A stretch of DNA of 64,000 nt from an uncultured bacterium (GTDB lineage Bacteria; Acidobacteriota; Aminicenantia; UBA2199): assembly GCA_942492175.1 (NCBI GenBank), contig CALODR010000009.1, forward strand, positions 249,711-313,710. The letters run 5' to 3'. The notes under the pieces are model-generated. The model was not told where the DNA came from. It searched no databases and worked only from the letters and a program-made list of their open reading frames with translations. Of this stretch, positions 4,707 to 50,966 are shown piece after piece. Both the position numbers and the translations under genes were made by a program. Every line of letters begins with the position of its first letter. Positions within the stretch are counted from its first letter, which is position 1.

Positions 4707-5459
4707 TTAATTGAAGATGTATTTTTTGTTGCGGACTGTTATGTTGGGTGGTATTTTGTGTTTTTCGAAGTGATCATAACCCTCTTTCAAGTTTTTCCAG
4801 AAATCTGTCCAGTTTGAGTCTCTGTATTTTATCATGTTGTTCTCAGTCATCTTGAACGGGAATATGTGGATCCTGAAATAGGGCTGACCTTTTTCGAATG
4901 CTTTGTGTATAATTGTGTATATCTCTTTTATTCTCCGGTCGGTCATTGCGTAGCAACCGATCGAGACACAATTCCCGTGAACCATGATAAGTCCTCCTGT
5001 ATATCCGTGGGACCTGTCGTATCTGTTCGGATATCCTATATTGAAGGAGAGGAAAAAGGAGCTCCATGGATTTAATTGGTTCGGTTTTACAAAATAGAAA
5101 CCTTCGGGGCTTTTACCGTCACCCTCTCGCTTTTTGGTCCCGAGACCACCTGAGAAATAGCAGATCCAGTACTCTTTAAACAACTTGTATTCTGAACCCG
5201 ATTTCACCCACATCTCCAGTATCTTTTCAGACTTGAAGATCCGAATATAAATATTGTTCCCGAGCGTAAGATCTTTATTCTCAAATTTTGTTGCCAGTGC
5301 CGGTGCTAATTCATTTATCACTTTTTCAGATCTAGGACTTTTCGGAATATTTACTGCAATTGAGATGGCAGATGATAACAGAATAATTAAAATTGAAAGA
5401 GTGAACTTTTTTATTTTATGTGGTTTCCTGTGATTTTTTTGCCGGAAGTTCATCTTCAA
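4707..5459 (-). CDS. YkuD-domain L,D-transpeptidase family protein (YafK/DpaA-like)
   Basis: KREGDGKSPEGFY, SFNIGYPN, catalytic IMVHGNCVSIGC; N-terminal hydrophobic segment. Confidence 0.85.
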   Translation of the reverse strand: MKMNFRQKNHRKPHKIKKFTLSILIILLSSAISIAVNIPKSPRSEKVINELAPALATKFENKDLTLGNNIYIRIFKSEKILEMWVKSGSEYKLFKEYWICYFSGGLGTKKREGDGKSPEGFYFVKPNQLNPWSSFFLSFNIGYPNRYDRSHGYTGGLIMVHGNCVSIGCYAMTDRRIKEIYTIIHKAFEKGQPYFRIHIFPFKMTENNMIKYRDSNWTDFWKNLKEGYDHFEKHKIPPNITVRNKKYIFN

Positions 5460-37796: not shown

Positions 37797-40154
37797 ATGG
37801 GAGATGTTGAAATCATAAAAACTGAAAAGAAAAGTTTTTTTAAAGAGCTTTTGCATAGAAGAGTATTGCAGATAACAGGATTTTATCTTGGCGGCGGATG
37901 GGGGGTTCTTCAATTCCTCGACTGGATAGTAGAGAGGTACCTGCTCTCCCCTCTTCTTGTGGACATGGCTTTAACAATCATTATTTCTCTCCTCCCAACT
38001 ATTGTGACAATTGCATATTTTCATGGAATCCCGGGGAAGGACAAATGGAGGAAGCGCGAAAAGATCCTTATACCTTTGAATCTTACATTGGCAATAGTAC
38101 TAGTTTTTTTTATATTCGGGAGTAAAGATCTCAGCTCTTTAGCTAAACGTGTCTCGGTTGTTGATGAGGAAGGGAATAGAATAGAACAATTGGTCCCGAG
38201 AAAAGGAGTAGTTAAAAATCTAACTGCTTTTTTCTTCGAAAATGAATCCGGAGACAAAAAATCAGACTGGCTCCAATATGTAATTATGGATATGTTCGTT
38301 TTTGATATTTCCCAGGATCCGTTTATTAATGTGTTGTACCCATTCACTCAGGATGTAATGAAGGGGTTTTATGTTTATCAGAAATTCAAGGATGCAGGGT
38401 TCCCTGATGCAACTGGAGCTCCTCTTATGCTGAAAAAAAATATCGCAACCGATCTGAAATCTGAAAATTTCATGTCAGGGAGTATTACCAGCGCTGGAGA
38501 TGAGATAGAGATTGATGTCAAGATATACAGAACCAGGGATAATAGTATTGCCGCAGAGAAAACTTTTAAAGCCAACGATATTTTCTTACTTGTCGATGAT
38601 CTTACAGACTTTATAAAAAAAGTTTTAAAACTCCCGAGTTACAATAACAGGGAGATCATAGATCTCCAGATAAAGGATATGTTTACAAGTTCCCTAAAAG
38701 CAGCCCGTTTCTTTACTGAAGGAGGGTATGAAGTTGTAAAGAACAATGATTATAACGCCGCTCAGAAACTTTTTGAAGATGCGGTGAATGAAGATACTAC
38801 ATTTACCATCGCATACTCACAATTGTCCGAGATCTATGCATTGAACAACAGAATCGATAAATGGAAGTCGACAGTCAAAGAAATGATGAAACACTTGTAT
38901 AAATTACCGGAAAAAATGCAGATGCAGCTGAAAGCAGGATATTATCTGAGCGTAAAAGGTGAGCCTGAAAAAGCTGAATCGATCCTAAAAATGATCATAA
39001 AGCTTTATCCGAATGATACTAAAAGTTATTTCCAGCTGGCGTCACGTCTGGATCTGACAGGTAACTATAAAGAGGCGATTTTGTATTATCAGAAAATACT
39101 TGAGTTAGATCCGGGACAGGATGAGATCTATAATAAAATAGGGAGAGCTTATGAAAATCTTGATGAGCTGAATGAAGCCCTTGAAAACTATAGAAAATTT
39201 TCGGAATTATACCCAAAGGATATACCAGGTTTTCTCAGGATAGGCAAAATTGAAGAGATGCTGGGGCATTTTAATAAAGCCGCGGAAATTTATGATAAAG
39301 CACTTCTGCTGGATCCGGAAAGAACCGGCACTATTCTCTTGCTGGCAGGACTTGATATAAAAACGGGGGAATTCGCTGAAGCGCTTGTGAAATATCAGGA
39401 AGCCCTCGAAACATCAAAGAATAGCAGAGAAAAAGCGTCTGTCTACAGTGCCATGGAAAATTATTTTCAGATGAAGGGTCAGCAGAATAAAGCTGTTGAA
39501 ATGATGAATAAGTTCTATCAGAGTAATGATCAATACCTCCCGCCTCTTCAGACTTTATTCGTGAAGGTGGTGACGGTTGATATTTTCATGAAGAAAGGTA
39601 TGGTGAAGGAAGTGAAAGAATTGCTGGATAAAGCAAGGAAACAGCTGTCCCCTCCTTTTGATAATATAGTTTCTGTCGGATACATTACATATTATAAATA
39701 TCTAGGAGAACTTGAAAAAGCAGAAAGTTATCTTCCTGATATAGATGAGTTTGTCAAATTGACAGGAAATAAGCAATTACTTCAAGTCTCGGGAAGGAGA
39801 AAAGCTGAGATAGCTTTTTTAAGAGGGGAATTTGATAAAGCATTTCTTTACTACAAAGAACTGCTTGAACAGGACCGGGACGGTATATCACTCAACCTCC
39901 AGATCGCCAATTGTCTGAAAAAACTGGGAAGATATGAAGAGGGACTGGAATATATTAATAAGATATTAAAGCTCTCTCCCTATCATCCCGAACTGAATTT
40001 TACTGCAGGCCAACTTAATTCAGAATTAAAAAATAGGGCAAAGGCAATTTTCCACCTTGAGCTTGCTGTAAAAGGCTGGGAAAATTCTGATGAGGATTTC
40101 GAACCGGCCGTTAAAGCAGGTAAAATGCTGGAAAACCTTAGAAAGGGAAAGTAA
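37797..40154 (+). CDS. Membrane-anchored TPR protein with TolB-N/FlgO-like domain
   Basis: N-terminal ELLHRRVLQ...W..LQ and 2-3 TM helices, LTAFFFENESGD, many TPR-like repeats. Confidence 0.75.
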   Translation: MGDVEIIKTEKKSFFKELLHRRVLQITGFYLGGGWGVLQFLDWIVERYLLSPLLVDMALTIIISLLPTIVTIAYFHGIPGKDKWRKREKILIPLNLTLAIVLVFFIFGSKDLSSLAKRVSVVDEEGNRIEQLVPRKGVVKNLTAFFFENESGDKKSDWLQYVIMDMFVFDISQDPFINVLYPFTQDVMKGFYVYQKFKDAGFPDATGAPLMLKKNIATDLKSENFMSGSITSAGDEIEIDVKIYRTRDNSIAAEKTFKANDIFLLVDDLTDFIKKVLKLPSYNNREIIDLQIKDMFTSSLKAARFFTEGGYEVVKNNDYNAAQKLFEDAVNEDTTFTIAYSQLSEIYALNNRIDKWKSTVKEMMKHLYKLPEKMQMQLKAGYYLSVKGEPEKAESILKMIIKLYPNDTKSYFQLASRLDLTGNYKEAILYYQKILELDPGQDEIYNKIGRAYENLDELNEALENYRKFSELYPKDIPGFLRIGKIEEMLGHFNKAAEIYDKALLLDPERTGTILLLAGLDIKTGEFAEALVKYQEALETSKNSREKASVYSAMENYFQMKGQQNKAVEMMNKFYQSNDQYLPPLQTLFVKVVTVDIFMKKGMVKEVKELLDKARKQLSPPFDNIVSVGYITYYKYLGELEKAESYLPDIDEFVKLTGNKQLLQVSGRRKAEIAFLRGEFDKAFLYYKELLEQDRDGISLNLQIANCLKKLGRYEEGLEYINKILKLSPYHPELNFTAGQLNSELKNRAKAIFHLELAVKGWENSDEDFEPAVKAGKMLENLRKGK

Positions 40155-40155
40155 T

Positions 40156-41805
40156 ATGTTTGACAAAAATTGCTGCCATTCAAATCTGAGAGGGTATGCT
40201 TCAAGGGTTGACGGGAATGAGATTCCATACTCGATATGTGAGACATGTAAAAGTATCTGGCTTGACAGGGAAGAAGCCATAAAATTGAGATCAAAATACA
40301 GTGAAGAGAAAAGTAATATGATTTCTGATTACTTCTGCCCCAGATGTGGGGATAATTTTTTGGAGACAATTAAAGATGATTTTGTTGAAGGGTTGTCAAT
40401 TCACCAGTGCAGAAAATGCAATGGGATAAGAATAAACCTTCTTGATCCTGAAAAGACAATGATAAAAAAAAGCGGAAATGAACTTTTTTACTCTTTTATC
40501 AATACACTCTCAGATTCCTTTAATAGAGAAATAAATCGAAAACAAAGTCATAAATTGCCACTTAGTTTTAAAATCAGCAAAACAGAAGAAACAGACAATA
40601 AATGTCCCGCCTGCAGCGCTAAGTTGTCAAATTACAGGGTTCATGAAAATGATGGGGAAAGCGAAGTAGAATTTGATATATGTGATTCGTGTTATGGAGT
40701 TTGGTTTGATAAAGAAGATATGGTTTCCCATAGGTCTGGTTTAGAGAAAAAACTCAATATTGATCTAGATAATATTGCTCCTACCGACAGGACCTGTCCT
40801 AAATGCCGTGATATTAAACTGGTTTCCCTAAAGTATAAGGAACTTGACACAATAATTGACTGCTGCCCTGATTGTTTCGGCACCTGGTTGGACGGGGGGG
40901 AATTATTAGAATTCTCAGATCATCTGGGAATTAGTGGTCAGATGATAATTGATGTTCTGATCGATAATGCTCTGTTTAAAGACCCTGTATTAACAGGAGT
41001 ATTGAAGCAATTCAGCAGAACAATTCATAAAATGGAATCGCTTAACAGGGAGCAGGAGGAGAATCTTGATCAGGCAAGAGAAATACAGGAAAAATTAATA
41101 TTTGCAGATAAAGAGCCAAATTCTCTTGAACCCTATTTGTATTTTAAATATTCAATCCTCAGTCATTGGATCCCAGCTAAAGTAGTAGGAGGAGATTACT
41201 TTGCTATGATCCCATTTAAATATAAAGGGAAAGACCTGATGGGTATTTGCATTGCAGATGTCTCGGGGAAAGGATTACCGGCATCTTTGCTGATGTCAAA
41301 TTTACAGGCATTGCTGAATTCATTTGCTCGACACACTGATTCTCCTGCAAAACTTTGTACTCAGTTAAATAGTATCCTGCATAATTTTACAATGTCCAAC
41401 AAATTTATAACTTTTTTCTATGGCGTTCTGGATCCCGCATCAGGATCTTTTAAATACTGTAATGGAGGGCATAATCCTCCGGTATTTCTTTCTTCAACCG
41501 GTAGTTACGAATGGATGAAAACAGGGGGGAGTGTATTAAGTTTTTTCCCTGATTGGGAATACAATGAAGATGTAGTTTATCTCAAAAAAGGGGACAGAAT
41601 TCTGTTTTATACGGATGGAGCGTCAGAAACTGAGAATAAAGCCGGAGAAGAGTTTGGAGAAGCAAGACTTGCATCTTTATTAAAGAATTATAGTAATCTT
41701 GATATTACTCAGGCAATGCAGTCCCTGATAAGGGATATAAAAGAATACAATCTCGGACAATACAATGATGATACGACCCTTCTGCTCATGGAAAGATATG
41801 AATAG
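40156..41805 (+). CDS. Four tandem zf-TFIIB-like Zn ribbons fused to a SpoIIE/PP2C phosphatase
   Basis: CPxC...CxxC.G.W.D repeats; GGDYF, IADVSGKG, NGGH, YTDG, DDTTL; ATG 40156 one base after the upstream stop. Confidence 0.85.
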   Translation: MFDKNCCHSNLRGYASRVDGNEIPYSICETCKSIWLDREEAIKLRSKYSEEKSNMISDYFCPRCGDNFLETIKDDFVEGLSIHQCRKCNGIRINLLDPEKTMIKKSGNELFYSFINTLSDSFNREINRKQSHKLPLSFKISKTEETDNKCPACSAKLSNYRVHENDGESEVEFDICDSCYGVWFDKEDMVSHRSGLEKKLNIDLDNIAPTDRTCPKCRDIKLVSLKYKELDTIIDCCPDCFGTWLDGGELLEFSDHLGISGQMIIDVLIDNALFKDPVLTGVLKQFSRTIHKMESLNREQEENLDQAREIQEKLIFADKEPNSLEPYLYFKYSILSHWIPAKVVGGDYFAMIPFKYKGKDLMGICIADVSGKGLPASLLMSNLQALLNSFARHTDSPAKLCTQLNSILHNFTMSNKFITFFYGVLDPASGSFKYCNGGHNPPVFLSSTGSYEWMKTGGSVLSFFPDWEYNEDVVYLKKGDRILFYTDGASETENKAGEEFGEARLASLLKNYSNLDITQAMQSLIRDIKEYNLGQYNDDTTLLLMERYE

Positions 41806-41855: not shown

Positions 41856-43814
41856 TTAAGTTATTTTTTCAGCAATTATCTCAGCTATATCTTTAACTTT
41901 GACTGACTCCTCTTTTTCTTTGTCTTTGATCCCGTCTGTCAGCATTGTTGTACAGAAGGGGCAGGAAGTACAGACGGTATCTACGCCGGTTCTAATTACT
42001 TCATCTGTCCTGACGTGGTTAATCCTCTCGCCCTGGTCCTCTTCAGCCCACATAAGACTCCCGCCTCCACCGCAACAGAAACTGTGATTCTTGTTATTCT
42101 TCATCTCTTTTAGTTTCAGGCCTGCACTTTTTATTACTTTTCTCGGCTGATCATAAATCCCGTTATGACGCCCCAGGTAGCACGGATCATGGAAAGTTAC
42201 ATCATATTCTGAATCTTTATTGATCTTAAGTTTTCCCTGAGAGACAAGTTCGTTTATCAACTGGGAGTGGTGGAATATTTCGGGCATTTTGAATTCCATC
42301 CCTGTAAGTTTTGCTATATCGTTGTACTCATTTTTAAATATGTTCATTCCGTGAGGACAGGTTGTTACGATCTTTTTAAATTTGTATCTCATCAGAGTTT
42401 CAATATTCTGAACTGCCATCATTTGAAAAAGGTATTCATTCCCTGCTCTTCTGGCAGGATCACCGCAGCAATTTTCTTCAGCTCCGAGTACAGCATAATC
42501 GAGACCTGATTTGTTCAATATTGAGATCATAGCTTTTGTCACATTTTTATTCCTGTCATCAAAGGAACCTGAACAACCCACCCAGAATAGTATCTCCGCA
42601 TCATCATGATCTGATGCTTTCCTGACCTCCAGGTCTTCCATCCATTCACCCCTTGTCGAAGATCCGAATCCCCAGGGGTTACTATTGGTCTCAAGATTTC
42701 TGAAGAACTGATTGAATACTTCCGGAAATTTAGCCTCCATAAGGACACGGCTCTGTCTCATCCCGATGATTTTCGGTATGTGCTCATTCAGTACCGGACA
42801 TGCATCCATGCAGGCCCCGCAGGTTGTACAGCTCCAGATCTCATTGTCTACAAATACCCTGTCCATTAGTGGGGGGATCTGGTAAGCCGGGTCTTTAAGT
42901 TTTTTTGCTCCCTCTTTCAGAAGGTCATCTCTCATTTTTGTGATAATTGTTTTTGGTGACAACTCTTTTCCTGTCTGGGATGCAGGGCAATAGTCTGTGC
43001 AGCGGCCGCAGTCTATACAGGCAAAACCGTCAAACAGGTCTTTCCATGTCATATCCACCTGCGTTGTAACACCGAATGTTTCAGCGGATTCCAGATCTAC
43101 GGTTTTCAGATATGAGGTAGGATTTCCGGCTTTAAAAGCAATGTTGGCCGGCCCCATGAACATGTGCATATATTTTGAACGGGGTACATATAGTATAAAC
43201 ATGAATACATTTATGATGTGGAGCCACCATGTTGCTTTGACAAGGGCCCATGATGCGGGAAGCCATCCGGCAAATATTTTTCCTACAAAAGCCACGCTTT
43301 CATCATAGGTGCCGTGATAAGAGATAGCAGCCCCCTCATAAAGGAGGAAGGTTAGTGTTACAGTTACCAGTAATGCATAGATTAACGGAGATTCCAAAGT
43401 GCCGTAGGTGTAGGATGATCTCCTTACAACATAACGTTTCACTATAAAAAATATTACTGCAAGAATGACTGCTATCGAAAAGAAATCAGCGATAATCGTG
43501 TGAATATTTGATGGATGTATATTTTTGTTAAATCCCTCCAGTATATGGAAAACTGTTATTGTATCAAAAGTTAAAGATCCATATAAAAGAAATATATGTA
43601 CCAATCCGGTTACTATTCTCTCTTTCTTAACGGAGCACATTAGAAGAAAAAAGTTTGCAATTGCATTAGTGATCCTTTTAAAGGGGTTGTCGAACCTTTC
43701 AGACTTCTGTCCCAATTGAACAAGTTTTATCCTGTGAACAACCGGTGTGAAAAAGAACCATATAGTAAAACCCAGCATTAATACAAAAACTATTGTTTCA
43801 ATAATATTAAGCAT
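41856..43814 (-). CDS. Membrane Fe-S oxidoreductase (FadF/HdrD-like; NarI-like TM region, two 4Fe-4S motifs, two CCG domains)
   Basis: CIDCGRCTDYCP, CTTCGACMDACP, WVGC, CCGD, HDPCYLGR, CCGGGG. Confidence 0.88.
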   Translation of the reverse strand: MLNIIETIVFVLMLGFTIWFFFTPVVHRIKLVQLGQKSERFDNPFKRITNAIANFFLLMCSVKKERIVTGLVHIFLLYGSLTFDTITVFHILEGFNKNIHPSNIHTIIADFFSIAVILAVIFFIVKRYVVRRSSYTYGTLESPLIYALLVTVTLTFLLYEGAAISYHGTYDESVAFVGKIFAGWLPASWALVKATWWLHIINVFMFILYVPRSKYMHMFMGPANIAFKAGNPTSYLKTVDLESAETFGVTTQVDMTWKDLFDGFACIDCGRCTDYCPASQTGKELSPKTIITKMRDDLLKEGAKKLKDPAYQIPPLMDRVFVDNEIWSCTTCGACMDACPVLNEHIPKIIGMRQSRVLMEAKFPEVFNQFFRNLETNSNPWGFGSSTRGEWMEDLEVRKASDHDDAEILFWVGCSGSFDDRNKNVTKAMISILNKSGLDYAVLGAEENCCGDPARRAGNEYLFQMMAVQNIETLMRYKFKKIVTTCPHGMNIFKNEYNDIAKLTGMEFKMPEIFHHSQLINELVSQGKLKINKDSEYDVTFHDPCYLGRHNGIYDQPRKVIKSAGLKLKEMKNNKNHSFCCGGGGSLMWAEEDQGERINHVRTDEVIRTGVDTVCTSCPFCTTMLTDGIKDKEKEESVKVKDIAEIIAEKIT

Positions 43815-43924: not shown

Positions 43925-43983
43925 GATTATCTTGAATGGGGGGATGGATTGTGTTAATCTTTTGGGGTAGAAAAGGAGATAAA

Positions 43984-44460
43984 ATGACAGATAAAATAAT
44001 TAATATAGGGGATAATGCCCCCGATTTCACTCTTAAAGATAATTCAGGTAATGACTTTTCACTCAGCAGTTTAAAGGGAAAATGGGTTGTGCTCTATTTC
44101 TATCCGAAGGATAACACTCCCGGATGTACTACCGAAGCTGTTGAATTTTCCGAAGTAAAGGACAATTTTCAGAAAAGAGGAGTGGAGGTGCTTGGAGTAA
44201 GCCCGGACTCGGTAAAGAGCCATATTAATTTTATTGAAAAAAAGGAATTGACTATAAAATTACTCAGTGATCCCGATAAAGATGTGCTTAAAAATTATGG
44301 GGTCTGGCAGTTGAAGAAAAATTACGGCAGGGAATATTGGGGAGTTGTAAGGTCAACTTTTTTAATTTCACCTGACATGAAGGTTGCACATTCATGGAGT
44401 TCTGTAAAAGTTAAAGGGCACGTTGAAGCTGTTGAGAAGAAACTGGAGGAATTGATCTGA
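43984..44460 (+). CDS. bcp: BCP/PrxQ peroxiredoxin (single Cys)
   Basis: YFYPKDNTPGCTTEA, GVSPD, LLSD, RSTF; ATG 43984 after GGAG. Confidence 0.92.
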   Translation: MTDKIINIGDNAPDFTLKDNSGNDFSLSSLKGKWVVLYFYPKDNTPGCTTEAVEFSEVKDNFQKRGVEVLGVSPDSVKSHINFIEKKELTIKLLSDPDKDVLKNYGVWQLKKNYGREYWGVVRSTFLISPDMKVAHSWSSVKVKGHVEAVEKKLEELI

Positions 44461-44472
44461 CGAAATCCCGAT

Positions 44473-46170
44473 TCAGGTCTTAGGCCTTCCGGGATCATCT
44501 TCTTTTTTCTTGAGCTTTTTTAGTTCCTCTTCGATTGCTTTCTTCTCTTTTATAAGCTGCTCTATCTCTTTTTTGTATTTTTCCAGGCTCTCTTTTCTCC
44601 TTTTTTCAATCTCTTCCTGAAGCTGCTTATTCTCTTTATTAAGAAACCTTTTTTCCTGAAGTTCTTTCTCTTTCAGTTCCAACAATCTGATCTTTTCGAG
44701 CTCCTCTTTCATTTTTAACTGATGCTGTCTATCCATCCAGAATTGTGCACCTGAAAATTTCTTGTTGAATTCATCGATCAACCGGGACTTATAAACCAGC
44801 CTTGAAGGGGCGATCTCTTTTTCGATAGTTTTCCCTTTTCTGATCAGTTTTATCTTCACTTTTTCATTCCTTTTTACTTTTTTAAGGGATGAAGTGAGAT
44901 CGGAAGTTGTTTTCAAGGGGAGATCATTGGAACTGATAAGTATGTCTCCTACTTTTAATTGCGATGCCTCTCCTTTTTTTTCCGATTTTACTTTTGAAAC
45001 AAGGAGTCCCCTGCCTGACTTTACTTTAAACTCTTCTGCAAGTTCAGGGGTGAGGGGGATAACATCAACACCGAGGCTGAATGATTCTGATAGATTGAAA
45101 GTATAGTTTTGTATTTTGGGTATAGATTCGATGAACTCGGGTGCTTCTGATAATCTGTTTACTAACTGCTGCTCTTTTATCTCGATCAGCTTCTTTTCCC
45201 TAAGATCCAGATCGGCAAGCTTTACATTTACTTTATGGAATTTTCCATCCCTTTCTATGGATACGATTATTTTATCTCCCGGTTTCAGCATTTTAATACT
45301 GTTGGAAAGGTGGGCCGGTGTTTTTATTTTCTTTCCTGAAATGTCTAAGATTCTGTCTCCTTCTTTAATCCCGCCAATTTCTGCAGGGGAGGTTTTTATT
45401 ACTTTCTCAACTTGTACCACCCCTCTGTTGTCGCTTATGATATTAACCCCCAACCATCCTCTTTTTACATGCCCGAACTCTTTGAGGTCATCTGCTATCC
45501 TGAATACCAATTCGTTTGGAATCGCATAACAAAGGTCCTTTCCTCCCCTCATTGATGATACGATCTTGAGTTCCGAATGGTCATCTTTAAAAGTGTATTG
45601 AGGGAAGAACTTATATCCGAAAACACCCCTTATTATACCGATGAATTCACCTTTCCTGTTTACAACTGCACCTCCTGTTGAACCGGGAGCGACAGTGGCA
45701 TTCAGGATAAGGTCTGTGCTGCTTTTACTACTGATTATTCCCTGGTTAAGGGATGGGAATTGTTTGTAGAACACTCCCACAAGTCCTACCCACTCACCTG
45801 TTCCCGGAAGTTTTCCCTTCCTGACAGGTTTAAGTACCCTTTCTTTGGTCCTCAGAAGGATCAGGGAGGAGTTCTTATCTTTTCCCACTATTTTCACATC
45901 GTGGATATTTCCTTTAACCGTTTCAATAAAGATCCTGTCGAAAGGGTGATTGAGAACCATTATATTTGATAATACCAGATCTTTCTCAATAGCAACGCCT
46001 GTGGCAATATATCTCCTGTGATTCTGAGTGACCACTTTTACAACGGAGGGCGAAATTTTGTCCAGTGCTTTCTTTACAAAAGTATCATTCCTGTTCACTT
46101 TTTCCGCACCATTCAGTCCGGCGGACAGCATTATTAATATTATGTATATGATAAACAGTATCCTTTTCAT
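44473..46170 (-). CDS. Exported HtrA/DegP-like protein with two PDZ domains, degenerate catalytic triad and C-terminal coiled coil
   Basis: PSVV, GKD, GIIS, GGAVVN.KGE.IGI, RGWLGV, SPA..GGIKEGD; SNIMV, SSLIL and PGSTGG at the triad positions. Confidence 0.8.
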   Translation of the reverse strand: MKRILFIIYIILIMLSAGLNGAEKVNRNDTFVKKALDKISPSVVKVVTQNHRRYIATGVAIEKDLVLSNIMVLNHPFDRIFIETVKGNIHDVKIVGKDKNSSLILLRTKERVLKPVRKGKLPGTGEWVGLVGVFYKQFPSLNQGIISSKSSTDLILNATVAPGSTGGAVVNRKGEFIGIIRGVFGYKFFPQYTFKDDHSELKIVSSMRGGKDLCYAIPNELVFRIADDLKEFGHVKRGWLGVNIISDNRGVVQVEKVIKTSPAEIGGIKEGDRILDISGKKIKTPAHLSNSIKMLKPGDKIIVSIERDGKFHKVNVKLADLDLREKKLIEIKEQQLVNRLSEAPEFIESIPKIQNYTFNLSESFSLGVDVIPLTPELAEEFKVKSGRGLLVSKVKSEKKGEASQLKVGDILISSNDLPLKTTSDLTSSLKKVKRNEKVKIKLIRKGKTIEKEIAPSRLVYKSRLIDEFNKKFSGAQFWMDRQHQLKMKEELEKIRLLELKEKELQEKRFLNKENKQLQEEIEKRRKESLEKYKKEIEQLIKEKKAIEEELKKLKKKEDDPGRPKT

Positions 46171-46180
46171 TTATTTTCTC

Positions 46181-46513
46181 CTAAATTGTCCCGGGATCTT
46201 CAAAGTTCCCCACCTGTTCGATCACATAATTATTGGAATCATCTGAAGCGGCAAAGGTAACATAATCGGTAACCGGCACTTCTTCCCGGGCGATAGGCCC
46301 TCCTTTTGTGAACAATGTATCGTTCTTCTCCGGAAGGAAAAGTGTCACGGAAATGAACAGGAATCCTCCTAGAAGAAAGGCTCCGAATGAAGAGGCTGCC
46401 ATGACTCTCTGTCTCTTCTTTCTTTTTATCTTGTGGAACACCATATCTTCAAAATTGTCGTTCAGTTGTTCCGTACGGGTGTAATCTCTGAAAATATCAT
46501 CCCTGCTACCCAT
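46181..46513 (-). CDS. Small single-pass membrane protein (putative anti-sigma factor)
   Basis: Overlaps the ECF sigma stop; basic patch followed by one TM helix. Confidence 0.6.
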   Translation of the reverse strand: MGSRDDIFRDYTRTEQLNDNFEDMVFHKIKRKKRQRVMAASSFGAFLLGGFLFISVTLFLPEKNDTLFTKGGPIAREEVPVTDYVTFAASDDSNNYVIEQVGNFEDPGTI

Positions 46514-47030
46514 TGTTTCCTCCGAATTGTACTTTTAATTTACTTCTCATTTTTTCTTTTCCTCTGAAAACAAGAGATTTTAGAGTTCCTACAGGTTTCT
46601 GCAGAATGTCCGACATTTCTTCAAATGAAAAATTGTCAACCTCTTTCATGATCAGAGGTACCCTGTATTTCTCTGCAAGGTGTGCCAGTGCTTCCTCAAT
46701 GATTATATTCTCTCCGAGCTTCTGCTCATAGGAATAATTAAGTTCATTGACATCACCAAGTGAGAACAGGTTCTTGATCCTCTTTTTTCTGAATTCAGAA
46801 AGTGCAAGATTTGTAGCGATCTTATATATCCAGGCCTTGAGGTTTTCTGTTTTAAGTGATCCGGCTTTGAAGTATACCCTCACAAATGTATCCTGGGTGA
46901 GTTCCTCCGCCTGCTCTCTGTTACCGAGCATCAGCAGAAGATAATTGAATATCTGACCTTTGTACATTCTCATCACCTCTTTAAGTGCCCACTCATCCTT
47001 CTGTTTCAGTTTGTTAATAAGTTCTGTCAT
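46506..47030 (-). CDS. ECF RNA polymerase sigma factor
   Basis: AEELTQDTF, AWIYKIATN, region 4 SFEEMSDILQKPVGTLKS. Confidence 0.93.
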   Translation of the reverse strand: MTELINKLKQKDEWALKEVMRMYKGQIFNYLLLMLGNREQAEELTQDTFVRVYFKAGSLKTENLKAWIYKIATNLALSEFRKKRIKNLFSLGDVNELNYSYEQKLGENIIIEEALAHLAEKYRVPLIMKEVDNFSFEEMSDILQKPVGTLKSLVFRGKEKMRSKLKVQFGGNNG

Positions 47031-47116
47031 CTTACACTAATAAGACTGGAGCATTCTTAAAAAAGTTGCAAAAATAATACTTTGCTCATGCAGTGTCTGT
47101 CGCCGGATATTATACT

Positions 47117-48220
47117 CTATTTGGAAACAAATTTTTTAAAATTAAAAATAGATATTGAGGATATCACAAGGGTGATCAATCCGAGTGAAAGCAGGTCTCC
47201 GTAGAATTGCTCAATTCCGTTACCCTTCAGAAAAATTTCCCTGATAATTTTTATCAGGTAGCTGAGAGGATTTATTCTAGCCAGCCATTTTAATCCTGCG
47301 GGAATATTCTCCAAAGGAGTAAAAAGCCCTGATAGAAGAATGAAAGTGATCATTGAAAATAGTGAGAAAAAGAGGGACTGCTGCTGGGAAGTCGAAAAAA
47401 CTGAAATGATCATCCCATAGGATGATATAGCTGCCAGGTAAATAAGTGCTGAGATCAGAAGATAGATCAGGCTCCCCCTGACAGGGATGTTGAACCAGAG
47501 AACGGCAACCAGAGTGCCGATACAGAGATTTAGAATTCCCATAAGGATCATCGGAAGAGCTTTGCCGATATAGATCTCGAAAGGGTTCAATCTTGATATA
47601 AGGAGTGTGTCGATAGTCTGCTGTTCCTTTTCCCTTACCAGAGATATCGATGTGATGAACACAGTTATCATTGTCAGGAGAAGTGCTACGATTCCAGGGC
47701 CCATATAATTTATGCTTCTAAGTTCGGGGTTGAACCTGATCAGAGGTTTGCTTCTCAAAACAGGAGAGACTCCGAGAGATCTTATATCTTCCAATATAAA
47801 ATTTCTTATTACACCATTAAAATAGCCTGCAGCGATCTGAGAAGTGTTCGAATCCACTCCGTCCATCAGTATCTGAACTTCCGGATATTTTTTTATCTTA
47901 TTCCCCGATTTTACCGGATCCCGGAACACTATGACTGTTTTTATATTACCTTGCCTCAATTCTTTGACTGTATCACGGTTTGTTCTGGAAATGTATTTTA
48001 CGTCGAACAGGTCTGATCCTGTGATCCTGTTTATGATCTTTACCGTTTCTTTTCCGGATGAGAGGTTGATTATCCCAACCGGAACATTCTTCACATCTGT
48101 TGTTACAATATACCCCAGGACCAGCAGCTGGAATATAGGTGCAACTATCATCATAAAAAGGAGCTCACGCTGTCTGCTGATCTCAAGGAACTCTTTTTTC
48201 ATAATGTAAAGGATCTTCAT
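47117..48220 (-). CDS. ABC-2 exporter permease (YbhR-like)
   Basis: KKEFLE, FNPEL, PG, VREKEQQT, LSGLFTPLENIP. Confidence 0.9.
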   Translation of the reverse strand: MKILYIMKKEFLEISRQRELLFMMIVAPIFQLLVLGYIVTTDVKNVPVGIINLSSGKETVKIINRITGSDLFDVKYISRTNRDTVKELRQGNIKTVIVFRDPVKSGNKIKKYPEVQILMDGVDSNTSQIAAGYFNGVIRNFILEDIRSLGVSPVLRSKPLIRFNPELRSINYMGPGIVALLLTMITVFITSISLVREKEQQTIDTLLISRLNPFEIYIGKALPMILMGILNLCIGTLVAVLWFNIPVRGSLIYLLISALIYLAAISSYGMIISVFSTSQQQSLFFSLFSMITFILLSGLFTPLENIPAGLKWLARINPLSYLIKIIREIFLKGNGIEQFYGDLLSLGLITLVISSISIFNFKKFVSK

Positions 48221-49335
48221 TATGCCACCTTCCTCATGTTTGAAAATTTCTTTGCTGCAACGGCGATCAGGATGATACTCATAAGGATCAATATAGCTCC
48301 GTCAGTGACAAAATCAGAAAATGATGCTCCCTTTAATACGACCCCCCTGATGATCTTCAGGAAGTAGGTGGCCGGGACGATACTTGAGATGACCCTGAGG
48401 ACCTTCCCGAGGGAAGTGATGGGGAAAATAAAACCCGATAACATTATTGAAGGGAGCATTGTGGCAAGGAGTGTGGCAAGCATGGCTGTCTTCTGGTCGG
48501 GAGCAGCCATTGAGATCATGATCCCGAGAGAGAGTCCCGTAAATATAAAGATCAGTGAGAAGAAGAAGAGGGTCAGAATGTCTCCCCGGATGGGAAGTCC
48601 GAACCAGAAATTGCTGAAAAGAAGAATAAGTGCCTCAACTAAAAATGAGACGAATATATAGGCAATTGTTTTCCCGATGATTATTTCATAGGATTTGATC
48701 GGAGAAATGAATATCAGATCTATTGATCCCGACTCCTTCTCTCTTGACATACTGAGTGAGGTTAAAAGTGCAGATATCATCATCAGAAGAATTGCATTGA
48801 TCCCGGGAATAAAAAAATAGGCGCTTTTCAGTTCCGGATTGAAATAAATTTTTGTGCTGATGTTAAGCATGTTCCTAATGTTCTGATGGTCCTCAATGAA
48901 GGCCATCAGGATCATTTCATCATACTGGTATATTATATTCGCTGTATTGGAGTCGGAACCGTCTATTATAAACCCGATATCAACAGGCGTTCCGTTCTTT
49001 ACCTTTTCAGAAAAATCCCTGGGGATTATCATTATTTCATGAAGTTCACCGCTTTTTAAGAGTTTTTCATAGGTTTCTATAGAATGGTCATCACCGGCCT
49101 TCGGTCCTGATAATGTGAAATATTTATTATTCAGAAATTTCCCCTGAAGCTTTTCTGAAAGATCCGATTTGGAATAATCGATGATCCCGATGTTAATGTT
49201 ATTGAGATCAAAAGATATTGCATATCCGTAGATAAACACCATAAATACAGGCATAATGAATATGATAATCAGGCTCTTGGGGTCCCTGAGTATATGGTAT
49301 AGCTCTTTTCTGGTTACCGGTTTAATCCCTTTCAT
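48220..49335 (-). CDS. ABC-2 exporter permease (YbhS-like)
   Basis: RKELYHILRD, FNPELKS, REKESGS, LSGFIFPI, PATYF. Confidence 0.9.
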   Translation of the reverse strand: MKGIKPVTRKELYHILRDPKSLIIIFIMPVFMVFIYGYAISFDLNNINIGIIDYSKSDLSEKLQGKFLNNKYFTLSGPKAGDDHSIETYEKLLKSGELHEIMIIPRDFSEKVKNGTPVDIGFIIDGSDSNTANIIYQYDEMILMAFIEDHQNIRNMLNISTKIYFNPELKSAYFFIPGINAILLMMISALLTSLSMSREKESGSIDLIFISPIKSYEIIIGKTIAYIFVSFLVEALILLFSNFWFGLPIRGDILTLFFFSLIFIFTGLSLGIMISMAAPDQKTAMLATLLATMLPSIMLSGFIFPITSLGKVLRVISSIVPATYFLKIIRGVVLKGASFSDFVTDGAILILMSIILIAVAAKKFSNMRKVA

Positions 49336-50056
49336 TTTTTTTCACCGCTTCCTTGAATAGTGTCTCCACGGAATCTACCCGGTGTTCACGGAGCAATTGT
49401 GCCGGTTCCCCTTCTACTATTATGTTTCCCCTGTGAAGGATAACTATCCTGTCTGCATATTCGACCTCGTCCAGGTTGTGTGTTGTCACAAGTATTGTTT
49501 TTCCCTCTTTTTTTAGGGAATAGATATCCTGCCAGAAATTTCTTCTCATCTCGGGATCTACACCGGATGTCGGCTCATCCAGAAGAAGTATTTCCGGTTC
49601 CGGAATGAGAGATGTGAATAATGCAACTTTCTGTTTTATGCCGGGTGGAAGTTTATCCACACTATTATCAATAAGATCTCTTTGTATAATCCCGCTGAGA
49701 TCAGCGATTTTTTTGTTGATCTCTGCACGTTCGAGTCCTGATATTCCTGCAAAGAATTCCACATTTTCCCTTGCACTCAGTTTCGGATAGAGAGAAAATT
49801 TTTGTGACATATATCCCAGCTTTTCCTTTATCCTCTTTCTGAACTTTCCTGATTCCATACCGTCAACGATGATCGTGCCTTCTGTTATTCTGAGCAGGCC
49901 TATGATCATTTTTATTGTTGTGGTTTTCCCTGCTCCATTTGGCCCGAGGAAACCGAGGATCTCTCCTCTCTTTACACCAAAATTTATAGAATTGACGGCG
50001 GTAAAGTTGCCGAATTTTTTTGTAAGGTTTATCACTTCTATTATGTTATCGTTCAT
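49322..50056 (-). CDS. ABC transporter ATP-binding protein
   Basis: GPNGAGKT, LLDEPTSG, TTH; LPPG signature; start moved to ATG 50056. Confidence 0.92.
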   Translation of the reverse strand: MNDNIIEVINLTKKFGNFTAVNSINFGVKRGEILGFLGPNGAGKTTTIKMIIGLLRITEGTIIVDGMESGKFRKRIKEKLGYMSQKFSLYPKLSARENVEFFAGISGLERAEINKKIADLSGIIQRDLIDNSVDKLPPGIKQKVALFTSLIPEPEILLLDEPTSGVDPEMRRNFWQDIYSLKKEGKTILVTTHNLDEVEYADRIVILHRGNIIVEGEPAQLLREHRVDSVETLFKEAVKKNERD

Positions 50057-50057
50057 G

Positions 50058-50966
50058 CTAGTTGCTGTCTCTATTATGGCCCTGTTTCTCGTAATACATA
50101 TAAATATCCTCGAGCGCCGGTTTTTGCTCGGTGACCTCCAGAGTGTCAATGCTGTCCATTAAAATACTTTTCTGTTTCCCGATAAAATTCAGATATTTCC
50201 CCTTGATGAAGAAACTTTCTCCCTGCCCATTTTTCCCCTTTAATTTTTCTACAAGCTCAAAAATATTCTCTTTAGGTAATATTCTCCAGAGACGAAAAGG
50301 GACATCCCTCTTCAACTCACTGATATTTCCTTTTTTTATTATTTCTCCGTCCTTCAGGAATATAATATGGTCTCCATTCTCCGCTTCATCGAGATAGGGT
50401 GTGGATATAAAAATGGTTTTCCCCTCATTCTTAAGCATTTCAATGATCAGAAAGAACTCTATACGTGAGAGGGGGTCGACACCTGTTGTCGGTTCGTCCA
50501 GTATGATCAGTTCCGGTGAAGAGAGGAGAATTGAAGAGAGTGAAAGTTTCTGTTTCATCCCTCCCGAGAGTGCCCCTGCTTTTCTATTGCGGAATTTGAT
50601 CATTCCGGTGTTTTCAAGCAGTCTGTTTTTCAGGCTCTCTCTCCTTTTAAAAGGGACATTGTTTATATCAGCAAAAAAATTCAGATTTTCCTCAACTGTA
50701 AGATCTGTATAGAGTGAAAATCTTTCTGGCATGAATCCTGATATACTTGTGATCTTTGAAAAATCTTTTCTGATAGGTTCATCTTTTATATAAATATCTC
50801 CGGAGTCTGCTTTCTCCAGACCGAGAATTATTCTGAATAGCGTTGACTTCCCTGCCCCGTCAGCTCCAGCTATTATTGTTATTTTAGATTGGGGGAAATT
50901 GACTGAAATTCCATTCAGTGCTTCAACATTCCCAAAGGATTTTGTTATGTTGTTCAGTCTGATCAT
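50058..50966 (-). CDS. ABC transporter ATP-binding protein
   Basis: GADGAGKS, LSGGMKQK, ILDEPTTG, STPY. Confidence 0.92.
   Translation of the reverse strand: MIRLNNITKSFGNVEALNGISVNFPQSKITIIAGADGAGKSTLFRIILGLEKADSGDIYIKDEPIRKDFSKITSISGFMPERFSLYTDLTVEENLNFFADINNVPFKRRESLKNRLLENTGMIKFRNRKAGALSGGMKQKLSLSSILLSSPELIILDEPTTGVDPLSRIEFFLIIEMLKNEGKTIFISTPYLDEAENGDHIIFLKDGEIIKKGNISELKRDVPFRLWRILPKENIFELVEKLKGKNGQGESFFIKGKYLNFIGKQKSILMDSIDTLEVTEQKPALEDIYMYYEKQGHNRDSN

What the first reader, a model, noticed from the sequence alone, without database searches (positions are those of the whole stretch)
44473..47030. ECF sigma operon ending in an apparently catalytically dead HtrA (all three triad residues replaced)
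Seen by manual alignment to DegP: TNNHV becomes SNIMV (His to Met), DPRSDIAL becomes DKNSSLIL (Asp to Ser), and NRGNSGG becomes APGSTGG (Ser to Thr). Fold motifs, signal peptide and two PDZ domains are kept, and a ~70-aa charged coiled coil is added. The gene follows an ECF sigma and a 110-aa bitopic protein without a ZAS motif. Established: active HtrA/DegS proteases trigger or execute ECF envelope-stress responses. Inference: a pseudoprotease acting as chaperone, PDZ sensor or decoy that controls the anti-sigma factor without proteolysis, which may be an undescribed mode of ECF regulation.
Basis: partly seen in the sequence, partly recalled or inferred. Interest (0 to 1): 0.66.

Follow-up and report, generated by a model that had tools for sequence, protein, structure and literature searches.

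The report
ECF sigma operon with dead HtrA
A three-gene stress-signalling operon (sigma factor, small membrane protein, periplasmic HtrA-like protein) in which the HtrA has lost its catalytic residues is conserved across a whole uncultured bacterial lineage, so the dead protease probably works by binding rather than cutting, possibly by holding the tail of the membrane protein.

Summary
On the minus strand, 44473-47030 holds an ECF sigma factor, a 110-aa single-pass membrane protein and a 565-aa DegP/DegQ-like protein. In that protein the catalytic His, Asp and Ser are Met71, Ser102 and Thr165. This is a family trait, not a one-off. About 86 clusters at 90% identity, and about 60 at 50%, all lack His and Asp. 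The nucleophile position is Ser, Thr, Ala or Pro, depending on the clade. The genes are under strong purifying selection, and the protease-like domain is the most constrained part.

The order sigma, small protein, dead HtrA is kept in 41 of 48 assessable Aminicenantes/Acidobacteriota genomes. A conserved ECF-type promoter (TGCAAC-N18-RTCTTA) lies just upstream of sigma. A distant Acidobacteriota group has the same layout, with a zinc-motif (HxxxCxxC) anti-sigma as the middle gene.

The small protein always ends in a hydrophobic residue (Ile, Tyr or Phe), which could be a PDZ ligand. Paralogues of the dead HtrA that lack the sigma genes mostly carry such an ending on their own tail.

My best reading is a non-proteolytic periplasmic partner that docks the anti-sigma tail. 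That step is inferred, not shown. The main rival is a holdase that is only an output of the sigma factor. I rate this a new variant of known kinds.

The parts
47041..47070 (-). ECF-type promoter TGCAAC-N18-GTCTTA. It ends 10 nt upstream of the sigma ATG and there is no Shine-Dalgarno sequence, so the sigma mRNA is probably near-leaderless.
   Evidence: The motif GCAAC-N17-19-RTCTW is found at the same place upstream of sigma in 33 of 41 sigma-linked loci. Near variants occur in most of the others. There are 2 window matches against 0.18 expected. Sequence verified.
46506..47030 (-). ECF (group 4) sigma factor, 174 aa.
   Evidence: Pfam Sigma70_r2 and Sigma70_r4_2. TIGR02937 scores 71 bits, above its 42.9 cut-off. 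The best named models (SigW, SigM, RpoE) all score below their cut-offs.
46181..46513 (-). 110-aa single-pass membrane protein, the candidate anti-sigma factor. Cytoplasmic residues 1-37 are at 46403-46513, the TM segment 38-60 at 46334-46402 and the periplasmic tail 61-110 at 46184-46333. It ends in -GTI. Its start overlaps the sigma stop by 8 nt and has a GGAGG ribosome-binding site.
   Evidence: ORF, sequence, parts. No Pfam, NCBIfam or PDB match. The AF2 model has helices 4-14 and 20-59, a hairpin at 85-101 and a loose tail, at low confidence.
44473..46170 (-). 565-aa HtrA (DegP/DegQ)-type pseudoprotease. It has a GGAG ribosome-binding site and starts 10 nt after the small gene.
46105..46170 (-). 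N-terminal signal peptide or signal anchor (residues 1-22, MKRILFIIYIILIMLSAGLNGA).
   Evidence: Read from the sequence. Other family members have typical cleavable signal peptides. No predictor was run.
45463..46065 (-). Trypsin-like domain (residues 36-236) without a triad: Met71 (45958-45960), Ser102 (45865-45867), Thr165 (45676-45678). It keeps the PGxxGG L1 loop. It also has a family-specific insertion of about 20 aa (residues 190-209).
   Evidence: pLDDT is about 90 except in the insertion. It has the lowest dN of the protein.
45205..45462 (-). PDZ1 (residues 237-322), with its carboxylate-binding loop RGWLGV nearly invariant in the family.
   Evidence: Pfam PDZ_2, PDZ and PDZ_6. G238 and W239 are conserved in at least 90% of members and G241 is invariant. 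Model.
44803..45105 (-). PDZ2 (residues 356-456), with the loop SLGVDV (G367 invariant).
   Evidence: Second PDZ_2 stretch. DegQ PDZ alignments..
44500..44784 (-). C-terminal helix of about 95 residues, rich in Glu, Lys and Arg (residues 463-557). Its last 40 residues or so show a heptad pattern. A DDPGRPxx tail follows.
   Evidence: AF2 helix 463-557. The last 100 residues are 50-65% charged or Gln (D, E, K, R, Q) across the family. The heptad reading is by eye.

Best explanation
This is a self-contained, autoregulated envelope-signalling module of three co-translated genes, conserved across Aminicenantes and related Acidobacteriota.

(1) An ECF sigma factor drives its own operon from a TGCAAC-N18-RTCTTA promoter.

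(2) A small N-in single-pass protein is its anti-sigma factor. It has a cytoplasmic segment of about 37 aa with two short helices, which is the size of the segment in CnrY-type (class II) anti-sigma factors. It also has a periplasmic tail of about 50 aa, with a conserved beta-hairpin motif and an invariant hydrophobic last residue.

(3) A periplasmic DegP/DegQ-type protein lost His and Asp in the ancestor of the family, and later lost the Ser in several branches. It cannot be a serine protease. It keeps the peptide-binding hardware: the L1 loop and both PDZ carboxylate-binding loops.

The most likely mechanism is inferred, not shown. The dead HtrA docks the anti-sigma tail, with the C-terminus in a PDZ pocket and the hairpin motif perhaps in the dead cleft. 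This stabilises or shields the anti-sigma, much as RseB/MucB or CnrX do. Exposed C-termini or unfolded envelope proteins would compete for the same sites and free the tail. The anti-sigma is then inactivated, by unlinked proteases or by a conformational change. Sigma is released and the operon is induced. The extra dead HtrA then binds clients and resets the system.

Shown here: the anatomy, the triad loss, purifying selection, operon and promoter conservation, and the terminal-residue pattern. Inferred: the anti-sigma activity of the small protein, the physical contact, the competing ligand and the sign of regulation.
For: Triad loss is universal. None of 86 clusters has His or Asp, and the same holds for the roughly 60 full-length representatives at 50% identity. 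The canonical HtrAs in the same alignment keep all three residues.

The gene is functional. dN/dS is about 0.05-0.12, and the protease-like domain has the lowest dN. The fold is DegQ/DegP/DegS/MucD-like.

The peptide-binding loops are kept. G163 and G166 of PGxxGG, the GWLGV loop of PDZ1 and the LGV loop of PDZ2 are invariant or nearly so.

The operon is conserved. Sigma, small protein and dead HtrA occur in 41 of 48 assessable genome loci, with the same 8-nt overlap and roughly 10-nt gap. The same order is seen in L080, L081 and L084.

The promoter is conserved across genomes of very different GC content.

All 45 small proteins end in Ile (39), Tyr (5) or Phe (1), although the segment just before the end varies in length.

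The sigma-less paralogues form one derived clade. Seven of these 8 end in -I, -V or -L themselves, whereas most sigma-linked copies end in polar residues.

A distant dead-HtrA group in Acidobacteriota has the same layout. One middle-gene homologue there is labelled Polarisedimenticolia. The middle gene has an invariant HxxxCxxC, an FExRV motif before the TM segment, and a C-terminus RAS[F/Y/L]. The same position therefore holds a recognisable anti-sigma factor with the same kind of ending.

Precedents come from papers. The periplasmic C-terminus of CnrY docks in CnrX, and CnrY has a 45-aa cytoplasmic domain (PMC6851896). MamO is a non-catalytic HtrA relative with Thr at the nucleophile position (PMC4794232).
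Against: No interaction was modelled or measured, because complex prediction was not possible with these tools.

The small protein matches no known anti-sigma family. Its homology to the zinc-motif anti-sigma of the distant group is not established. HMMER finds nothing. hhalign aligns only the 17-column FExRV motif (probability 51%, E 1.6e-4).

The complementary C-terminus pattern has exceptions. L080, L027 and L044-46 are sigma-linked yet have hydrophobic or Cys endings. L023 is sigma-less and ends in -SLP.

Co-transcription is equally expected if the dead HtrA is only a regulon product.

The regulon could not be defined from 64 kb. The only other motif hit in the window is intragenic. No expression data could be obtained.
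Confidence: 0.5

Rival explanations
1. Output only. The dead HtrA is a periplasmic holdase or chaperone, a natural equivalent of DegP S210A. It is produced when the sigma factor is activated and buffers unfolded envelope proteins. It does not touch the anti-sigma factor. Co-transcription reflects co-regulation only.
For: Proteolytically inactive HtrA variants protect cells and suppress aggregation (PMC11642142). degP-type genes are classic members of envelope-stress regulons (established knowledge). The peptide-binding loops are conserved. Sigma-less paralogues exist, so the protein can work without the sigma pair.
Against: It does not explain why the periplasmic tail of the small protein keeps a conserved motif and an invariant hydrophobic last residue over such deep divergence. 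It does not explain why the sigma-less copies acquired such an ending themselves. The strict gene order has been kept since before the two Acidobacteriota groups diverged, which is tighter than is usual for a mere target gene.
Confidence: 0.3
2. Non-catalytic adaptor or activator. The dead HtrA presents the anti-sigma tail to an unlinked active protease (DegS/AlgW-like or other), or forms mixed oligomers with it. It would promote cleavage rather than prevent it, as MamO activates MamE.
For: MamO is catalytically dead, has Thr at the nucleophile position and activates MamE-dependent proteolysis (PMC4794232). DEG7 uses a degenerate protease domain for oligomerisation (PMC3194040). The trimer-forming N-terminal strand (SPSVVKV) is conserved.
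Against: No active HtrA is encoded in the window or next to the operon in any locus examined. The partner would have to be unlinked. Nothing found here speaks for mixed oligomers.
Confidence: 0.12
3. The protein is still a protease and uses unconventional residues, for example the Thr/Ser nucleophile with Lys or a nearby His.
For: Thr165 or Ser is present at the nucleophile position in many members. Some have Lys at the His position (P0013-P0018). His51 is present in 71% of members and His75 in 41%.
Against: The residue at the His position varies freely (M, K, L, A, Q, I, N, E, T, F, V). The nucleophile is Ala or Pro in large clades that keep everything else. No polar residue that could replace the triad is conserved across the family.
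Confidence: 0.03

Closest known systems
Pseudomonas algU-mucA-mucB-mucC-mucD and mycobacterial sigE / rseA-htrA-tatB (an ECF sigma, its anti-sigma and a linked HtrA)
   Same: An ECF sigma factor, a single-pass anti-sigma factor and a periplasmic HtrA-family protein are encoded together (PMC10027907; MucD structure among the best fold matches). The promoter is of the usual ECF AAC...CGT/TCT type.
   Different: MucD and mycobacterial HtrA are active serine proteases. Here His and Asp are missing in every member, and the nucleophile is often missing too. There is no MucB/RseB or TatB gene. The anti-sigma is much shorter and has no ZAS motif in the window clade. A C-terminal helix of about 95 aa is added.
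MamO and other magnetosome HtrA-type pseudoproteases
   Same: They are bacterial trypsin/HtrA-fold proteins with a degenerate triad that were retained for a non-catalytic role. MamO also has Thr at the nucleophile position (PMC4794232).
   Different: MamO keeps His and Asp, binds metal through a di-His motif and works in biomineralisation, not in a sigma operon. I tested for no metal motif here. The two families are not close: the nearest fold and sequence matches here are DegQ, DegP and DegS.
CnrY-CnrX-CnrH (class II anti-sigma plus a periplasmic sensor)
   Same: A small single-pass anti-sigma has a short cytoplasmic domain (45 aa in CnrY, about 37 aa here). Its periplasmic C-terminal part docks into a separate periplasmic sensor protein, and signalling is non-proteolytic (PMC6851896).
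   Different: There is no sequence similarity. The sensor here would be a dead HtrA with two PDZ domains, not a metal-binding four-helix bundle. The docking is inferred only.
RseB/MucB protection of RseA/MucA, and PDZ sensing of C-termini by DegS/AlgW
   Same: A periplasmic protein binds the anti-sigma tail and gates the response. PDZ domains of HtrA-type proteins read hydrophobic C-termini (PMC8545111 abstract; otherwise established knowledge).
   Different: RseB is unrelated in fold. DegS and AlgW cleave the anti-sigma after peptide binding, whereas cleavage by this protein is impossible. The logic would be 'displacement of a protector' rather than 'activation of a protease'.
DegP S210A / HtrA chaperone function
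   Same: A cage-forming HtrA scaffold acts as a holdase without proteolysis (PMC11642142).
   Different: That protein is an engineered mutant of a bifunctional enzyme. This one is a natural, lineage-wide loss with extra features (an insertion at 190-209 and the C-terminal helix).

Membership tests
HtrA/DegP family (MEROPS S1C serine endopeptidases) | Trypsin-like two-barrel protease domain | tested here: met
   Pfam Trypsin_2, E 7.6e-10 and 40.1 bits against a cut-off of 27.6. Foldseek top hits are DegQ, DegP, DegS, MucD and AlgW at probability 1.00.
HtrA/DegP family (MEROPS S1C serine endopeptidases) | One or two C-terminal PDZ domains | tested here: met
   Two PDZ_2 stretches. The AF2 model shows PDZ1 at 237-322 and PDZ2 at 356-456.
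HtrA/DegP family (MEROPS S1C serine endopeptidases) | His-Asp-Ser catalytic triad | tested here: not met
   Met71, Ser102 and Thr165 in the window. His and Asp are absent in all family members. It is a non-peptidase homologue, not a functional member.
HtrA/DegP family (MEROPS S1C serine endopeptidases) | Score above the NCBIfam Do-family cut-off (TIGR02037) | tested here: not met
   148.7 bits against a cut-off of 416.2. The DegQ, DegS and DegP equivalog models also score far below their cut-offs.
ECF (group 4) sigma-70 factors | [quoted passage not shown] | tested here: met
   Sigma70_r2 and r4_2 in 174 aa. TIGR02937 scores 71 bits against 42.9.
ECF (group 4) sigma-70 factors | Autoregulated promoter with an AAC -35 element and a CGT/TCT-type -10 element upstream of its own operon | tested here: met
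   TGCAAC-N18-RTCTTA is conserved upstream of sigma in 33 of 41 loci, with variants elsewhere. Transcription from it was not measured.
ECF (group 4) sigma-70 factors | Assignment to a named ECF group (ECF Hub classification) | not testable with these tools
   No ECF-group models were available. All named NCBIfam sigma models (SigW, SigM, RpoE and others) score below their cut-offs. The supplements of PMC7826278 are not held.
Class I anti-sigma domain / ZAS anti-sigma factors | HxxxCxxC zinc motif and a four-helix cytoplasmic domain of about 90 aa | tested here: not met
   The window protein has no Cys and only about 37 cytoplasmic residues. It has no zf-HC2 hit. The middle gene of the distant group does have an invariant HxxxCxxC. 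Its zf-HC2 scores are below threshold (E 0.03-0.05), and one member carries a precomputed PF13490 hit.
Class II (CnrY-type) anti-sigma factors | Short N-terminal cytoplasmic segment with helical propensity, one TM segment and a short periplasmic tail that contacts a periplasmic partner | tested here: inconclusive
   Topology and size fit. There are 37 cytoplasmic aa with predicted helices 4-14 and 20-37, a TM segment, and a 50-aa tail (CnrY features from PMC6851896). There is no sequence similarity, and sigma binding was not tested.
MamO-type pseudoproteases | Degenerate active site together with a surface di-His metal site and a magnetosome context | tested here: not met
   The degenerate site is present. 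However, no His is conserved across the family, and the context is a sigma operon, not a magnetosome island.

The most novel reading that the evidence does not exclude
The DegS logic is inverted. A dead HtrA holds the anti-sigma factor by its C-terminal residue in a PDZ pocket, and perhaps by a pseudo-substrate hairpin in the dead cleft. Envelope stress is then sensed by competition: exposed C-termini of unfolded proteins displace the tail. The signal step is therefore loss of a protector, not activation of a protease. The long charged helix in Aminicenantes, or the Pro-rich tail in the distant group, could act as a periplasm-spanning spacer, which would make the complex sensitive to envelope geometry. 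This would be a non-proteolytic, PDZ-based input to ECF signalling that has not been described.
Probability: 0.3. Interest if true: 0.78.

Novelty: new variant of a known kind. Interest (0 to 1): 0.62.

Why it matters
ECF sigma factors are among the commonest bacterial signalling devices. For most ECF groups the input mechanism is unknown. HtrA proteins are the textbook proteolytic trigger (DegS, AlgW) or modulator (MucD) of such pathways.

Here a lineage-wide HtrA has been stripped of catalysis yet is kept under strong constraint next to a sigma/anti-sigma pair. This gives a natural test of how much of HtrA signalling is binding rather than cutting. It would add bacterial pseudoenzymes to ECF regulation.

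It also gives a concrete, testable handle on envelope-stress sensing in Aminicenantes, an uncultured and widespread sediment and subsurface lineage. The handles are a promoter motif, a three-protein set that can be rebuilt in E. coli, and one terminal residue to mutate.

Tried and rejected
- **Alternative triad.** I looked for any conserved His, Asp, Ser or Lys that could replace the triad. His51 (71%) and His75 (41%) are not family-wide, and the nucleophile is Ala in the largest clade. Rejected.
- **Pseudogene or decay.** Rejected, because the ORFs are intact in more than 80 clusters and dN/dS is 0.05-0.12.
- **Second promoter hit.** The hit at 5267-5294 lies inside an ORF and lacks the T-run. 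I treat it as chance.
- **Small protein against known families.** Pfam on 21 members gave only scattered single hits with E > 0.01. A PDB profile search gave nothing meaningful.
- **Homology to the zinc-motif anti-sigma of the distant group.** HMMER was negative. hhalign aligned only short motifs. Not established.
- **Promoter motif near the sigma-less paralogues.** None was found, so there is no sign that they belong to this regulon.
- **ECF group assignment.** The re-classification paper's main text does not mention HtrA or PDZ, and its supplements are not held.
- **Complex modelling.** Modelling anti-sigma with the dead HtrA, or sigma with anti-sigma, is not possible with the single-chain predictor.
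- **ABC-2 exporter link.** ABC-2 exporter genes lie upstream on the same strand in two clades, but they are of different types and are absent in a third clade. I do not count them as part of the module.
Full report
**1. What is there**

The minus strand of 44473-47030 carries three tightly packed ORFs.

- The first is a 174-aa sigma factor (46506-47030).
- The second is a 110-aa protein (46181-46513). Its ATG overlaps the sigma stop by 8 nt and is preceded by GGAGG.
- The third is a 565-aa protein (44473-46170). It starts 10 nt after the small gene and is preceded by GGAG.

The next gene downstream is convergent. It is a Bcp-type peroxiredoxin at 43936-44460, so the unit ends with the 565-aa gene.

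The sigma factor has only regions 2 and 4. It passes the general ECF model (TIGR02937, 71 bits against a cut-off of 42.9) but none of the named models such as SigW, SigM or RpoE.

The small protein has no Pfam, NCBIfam or PDB match and contains no cysteine. Its layout is 37 cytoplasmic residues ending in KIKRKKRQR, one TM segment, and 50 periplasmic residues.

**2. The dead triad**

The 565-aa protein matches Trypsin_2 and has two PDZ stretches. HMMER alignments to solved DegP-like, DegQ and MucD chains put Met71 opposite the His, Ser102 opposite the Asp and Thr165 opposite the Ser. The codons were checked. MAFFT shifts the His column by one residue, to Val72, and there is no His either way.

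The protein scores 148.7 bits on the Do-family model, whose cut-off is 416.2.

An AlphaFold2 model built on 52 family members has mean pLDDT 77, and about 90 in the protease-like domain. It shows the two-barrel domain, PDZ1, PDZ2 and a single helix over residues 463-557. Foldseek against the PDB returns DegQ, DegP, DegS, MucD and AlgW at probability 1.00.

The helix is about 95 residues rather than 70.

**3. It is a family, and the loss is old**

A search of 5.8 billion clustered proteins found 86 relatives scoring at least 191 bits. There is then a sharp drop to canonical HtrAs at 88 bits or less.

None of the 86 has His or Asp at the catalytic columns. The 31 canonical HtrAs in the same alignment have His, Asp and Ser at 100%. 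An exhaustive profile search of 1.84 billion representatives added about 45 more full-length 50% clusters, and the result was the same.

- The residue at the His position varies freely (M, K, L, A, Q, I, N, E, T, F, V).
- The Asp position is mostly Ser.
- The nucleophile is Ser in deep branches and in the sigma-less clade, Thr in the window's clade, and Ala in the largest clade.

On a neighbour-joining tree the Thr and Ala states are separate, later changes. This pattern is what decay of a nucleophile that was already useless would produce.

The gene is not decaying. Against four relatives dN/dS is 0.05-0.12, although dS is saturated. The protease-like domain has the lowest dN of the three parts.

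The family keeps G163 and G166 of the PGxxGG L1 loop, the GWLGV loop of PDZ1 and the LGV loop of PDZ2. It adds an insertion of about 20 aa at residues 190-209 and the charged C-terminal helix.

**4. The operon is conserved, with its promoter**

A scan of one genome per species (GTDB r232) found 50 family loci. Nearly all are labelled Candidatus Aminicenantes or Acidobacteriota, and a few carry labels such as 'uncultured Clostridia' or Chrysiogenales.

Two of these loci lack upstream sequence. Of the other 48, 41 have sigma, a small bitopic protein and the dead HtrA in this order, with the same spacing. In 36 the small protein was found by phmmer and in 5 by ORF inspection. Three further metagenome contigs show the same order.

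The motif TGCAAC(TTTT)-N-(C/G)(A/G)TCTTA lies upstream of sigma and ends 10-14 nt before the ATG. It is found in 33 of the 41 loci by an exact pattern and in near variants in most others. These genomes range from AT-rich to very GC-rich. In the window it lies at 47041-47070.

This is a typical ECF promoter shape and implies autoregulation. The very short leader and the lack of a ribosome-binding site suggest a near-leaderless sigma mRNA.

**5. The small protein**

Forty-five small proteins were compared. All share (D/N)FExxVFxKI(K/R)KKK just before the TM segment. They also share a periplasmic motif, (K/R)EE(I/V)Px(T/S)E(D)xxF-(A/S)(A/S)SD-xx-Y-x-(I/L)E(Q/P)V. All end in a hydrophobic last residue: Ile in 39, Tyr in 5 and Phe in 1. 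The segment just before the end varies in length and sequence.

A low-confidence AF2 model (pLDDT 61) predicts helices 4-14 and 20-59, a hairpin at 85-101 and a loose C-terminal tail.

Position in the operon, topology and size fit an anti-sigma factor of the short, CnrY-like kind (CnrY features from PMC6851896). Sigma binding was not tested.

**6. A complementary pattern**

Seven genome loci and one metagenome contig carry the dead HtrA without sigma or the small protein. They lie next to a radical-SAM-like protein or a deoxyhypusine-synthase-like protein. These eight copies form one clade nested inside the sigma-linked family, so they are derived.

Seven of the eight end in -KNI, -ETI, -DVI, -TSV or -VTL. 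Most sigma-linked copies end in polar residues such as -RPKT, -KKTD, -GDGR or -SSQE.

One reading is that a PDZ pocket is filled in trans by the small protein's C-terminus, and in cis when the partner is absent. There are exceptions: L080 ends in -TEV, L027 in -KQI, L044-46 in -C and L023 in -SLP. This is an inference.

**7. A distant echo**

The exhaustive search also returned more remote dead HtrAs, P0259 and P0281. At the three catalytic positions they read VTIAS, SGLAVL and PGAAGGP. P0259 is labelled Acidobacteriota, and a homologue of the middle protein is labelled Candidatus Polarisedimenticolia.

They too follow an ECF sigma and a middle protein. Here the middle protein is 188-204 aa. 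It has an invariant HxxxCxxC, and its zf-HC2 hits are below threshold (E 0.03-0.05), although one member carries PF13490. It also has an FExRV motif before the TM segment and a periplasmic motif PPREIPFxxRQDLVGxRxGRIPxTTYVLEP. Its C-terminus is RAS(F/Y/L). The promoter is TGAAAC-N17-CGTTCT.

So the same slot holds a recognisable zinc-motif anti-sigma factor that also ends in a hydrophobic residue.

Homology between the two kinds of middle protein is not established. HMMER finds nothing. hhalign aligns only the FExRV motif (probability 51%, E 1.6e-4) or, against single sequences, the Y-x-LEP motif (E 0.036).

These distant dead HtrAs end in a Pro-rich tail instead of the charged helix.

**8. 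How it most likely works**

The following points are shown:
- The protein cannot use the serine-protease mechanism.
- It is constrained and it keeps its peptide-binding loops.
- It has travelled with a sigma/anti-sigma pair and an ECF promoter since before these lineages split.
- Its neighbour always offers a hydrophobic C-terminus.

From this I infer that the dead HtrA is a periplasmic receptor for the anti-sigma tail. It would act as a co-anti-sigma or sensor in the manner of RseB/MucB or CnrX. Competing ligands from a stressed envelope would displace it. As a regulon product it would also close a feedback loop. I put this at about 0.5.

The main rival is a holdase that is only an output, at 0.3. 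This is supported by the known chaperone function of inactive HtrA variants (PMC11642142). It leaves the conserved tail and terminal residue unexplained.

A MamO-like activator of an unlinked active protease is at 0.12. This is possible, but no active HtrA lies in the window or near any locus.

Residual catalysis is at 0.03. The Ala and Pro nucleophile positions and the variable His position argue against it.

**9. Compared with what is known**

ECF operons with an HtrA are known: algU-mucABCD, and mycobacterial sigE with rseA-htrA-tatB (PMC10027907). Those HtrAs are active.

Bacterial HtrA-type pseudoproteases are known in MamO and relatives (PMC4794232), and plants have the degenerate domain of DEG7 (PMC3194040). 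None of these sits in a sigma operon.

Non-proteolytic control of a short anti-sigma by a periplasmic partner is known for CnrYXH (PMC6851896), but the fold there is unrelated.

Searches for Aminicenantes with ECF sigma or HtrA, and for inactive HtrA with ECF, found nothing relevant. The ECF re-classification paper's main text does not mention HtrA or PDZ. Within those limits the combination is undescribed. I rate it a new variant of known kinds, not a new category.

**10. Limits**

- All functional statements beyond the loss of the triad are inference from sequence, context and predicted structure.
- The signal peptide, the heptad pattern of the helix and the motif resemblance to the distant anti-sigma were read by eye.
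- The taxon labels are those of the deposited MAGs.
- The window's own source is not named. Its closest relatives (84-86% identity) are Aminicenantes MAGs.

Noticed in passing
L010, L016, L018, L023, L024, L025, L037, L082 (dead-HtrA gene at about 6000 in each locus; 3501-5270 in L082): A derived clade of the same dead-HtrA family sits without sigma or anti-sigma. It lies downstream of a 605-aa radical-SAM-like protein or a deoxyhypusine-synthase-like protein. It keeps Ser at the nucleophile position and mostly ends in -I, -V or -L.
   Followed up: partly
L083:1229-4043 and L086:2310-5024: A distant, GC-rich Acidobacteriota group has an ECF sigma, a zinc-motif (HxxxCxxC) anti-sigma ending in RAS(F/Y/L), and a dead HtrA with a Pro-rich tail. 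A homologue of the anti-sigma is labelled Polarisedimenticolia. The unit is flanked by a DsbH-type thioredoxin and an FHA-domain protein.
   Followed up: partly
Proteins P0212, P0218, P0224, P0232, P0233, P0248, P0254; locus L088:3501-6584: Other HtrA-like proteins with several PDZ domains read 'NPGSFGGP' (Phe at the nucleophile position) and have no His. In L088 one of them sits next to a second Trypsin_2-PDZ protein and near an FHA-GAF histidine kinase. Degenerate HtrA domains seem common in metagenomes beyond this family.
   Followed up: no
window 47031-47070 (and the same place in about 40 loci): The -10 element of the sigma promoter ends only 10-14 nt before the ATG and there is no Shine-Dalgarno sequence. 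The two downstream genes do have GGAG(G). The sigma mRNA is probably near-leaderless.
   Followed up: no
window 47117-50149 (minus strand); L012:370-4959: ABC-2 type exporter genes lie directly upstream on the same strand. In the window clade they are an ATPase and two ABC2_membrane_3 permeases. In the main clade they are a different set: an ATPase, an ABC-2 permease, a GldG-like ABC_transp_aux protein and DUF4340. They are absent in the L044-47 clade.
   Followed up: partly
window 40090-41805 (+): A 571-aa protein has three TFIIB-type zinc-ribbon repeats in front of a SpoIIE/PP2C phosphatase domain. This is an unusual input domain for a PP2C phosphatase.
   Followed up: no
window 41856-43814 (-): A 652-aa membrane protein has a 4Fe-4S dicluster and two CCG cysteine-rich domains (HdrD/DsrK-like). 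The gene was also detected near the operon in L001-L003.
   Followed up: no
L003, L005, L008, L023, L026, L028, L038, L041, L046 (record titles): Several MAGs that carry this Aminicenantes-type operon are deposited as 'uncultured Clostridia' or 'Eubacteriales'. Others are labelled Chrysiogenales or Patescibacteria. These labels look unreliable.
   Followed up: no
L042:5054-5588 and L050:6001-7663: The sigma gene in L042 and the dead-HtrA gene in L050 are each split into two ORFs. This may be a frameshift or an assembly error in those MAGs.
   Followed up: no
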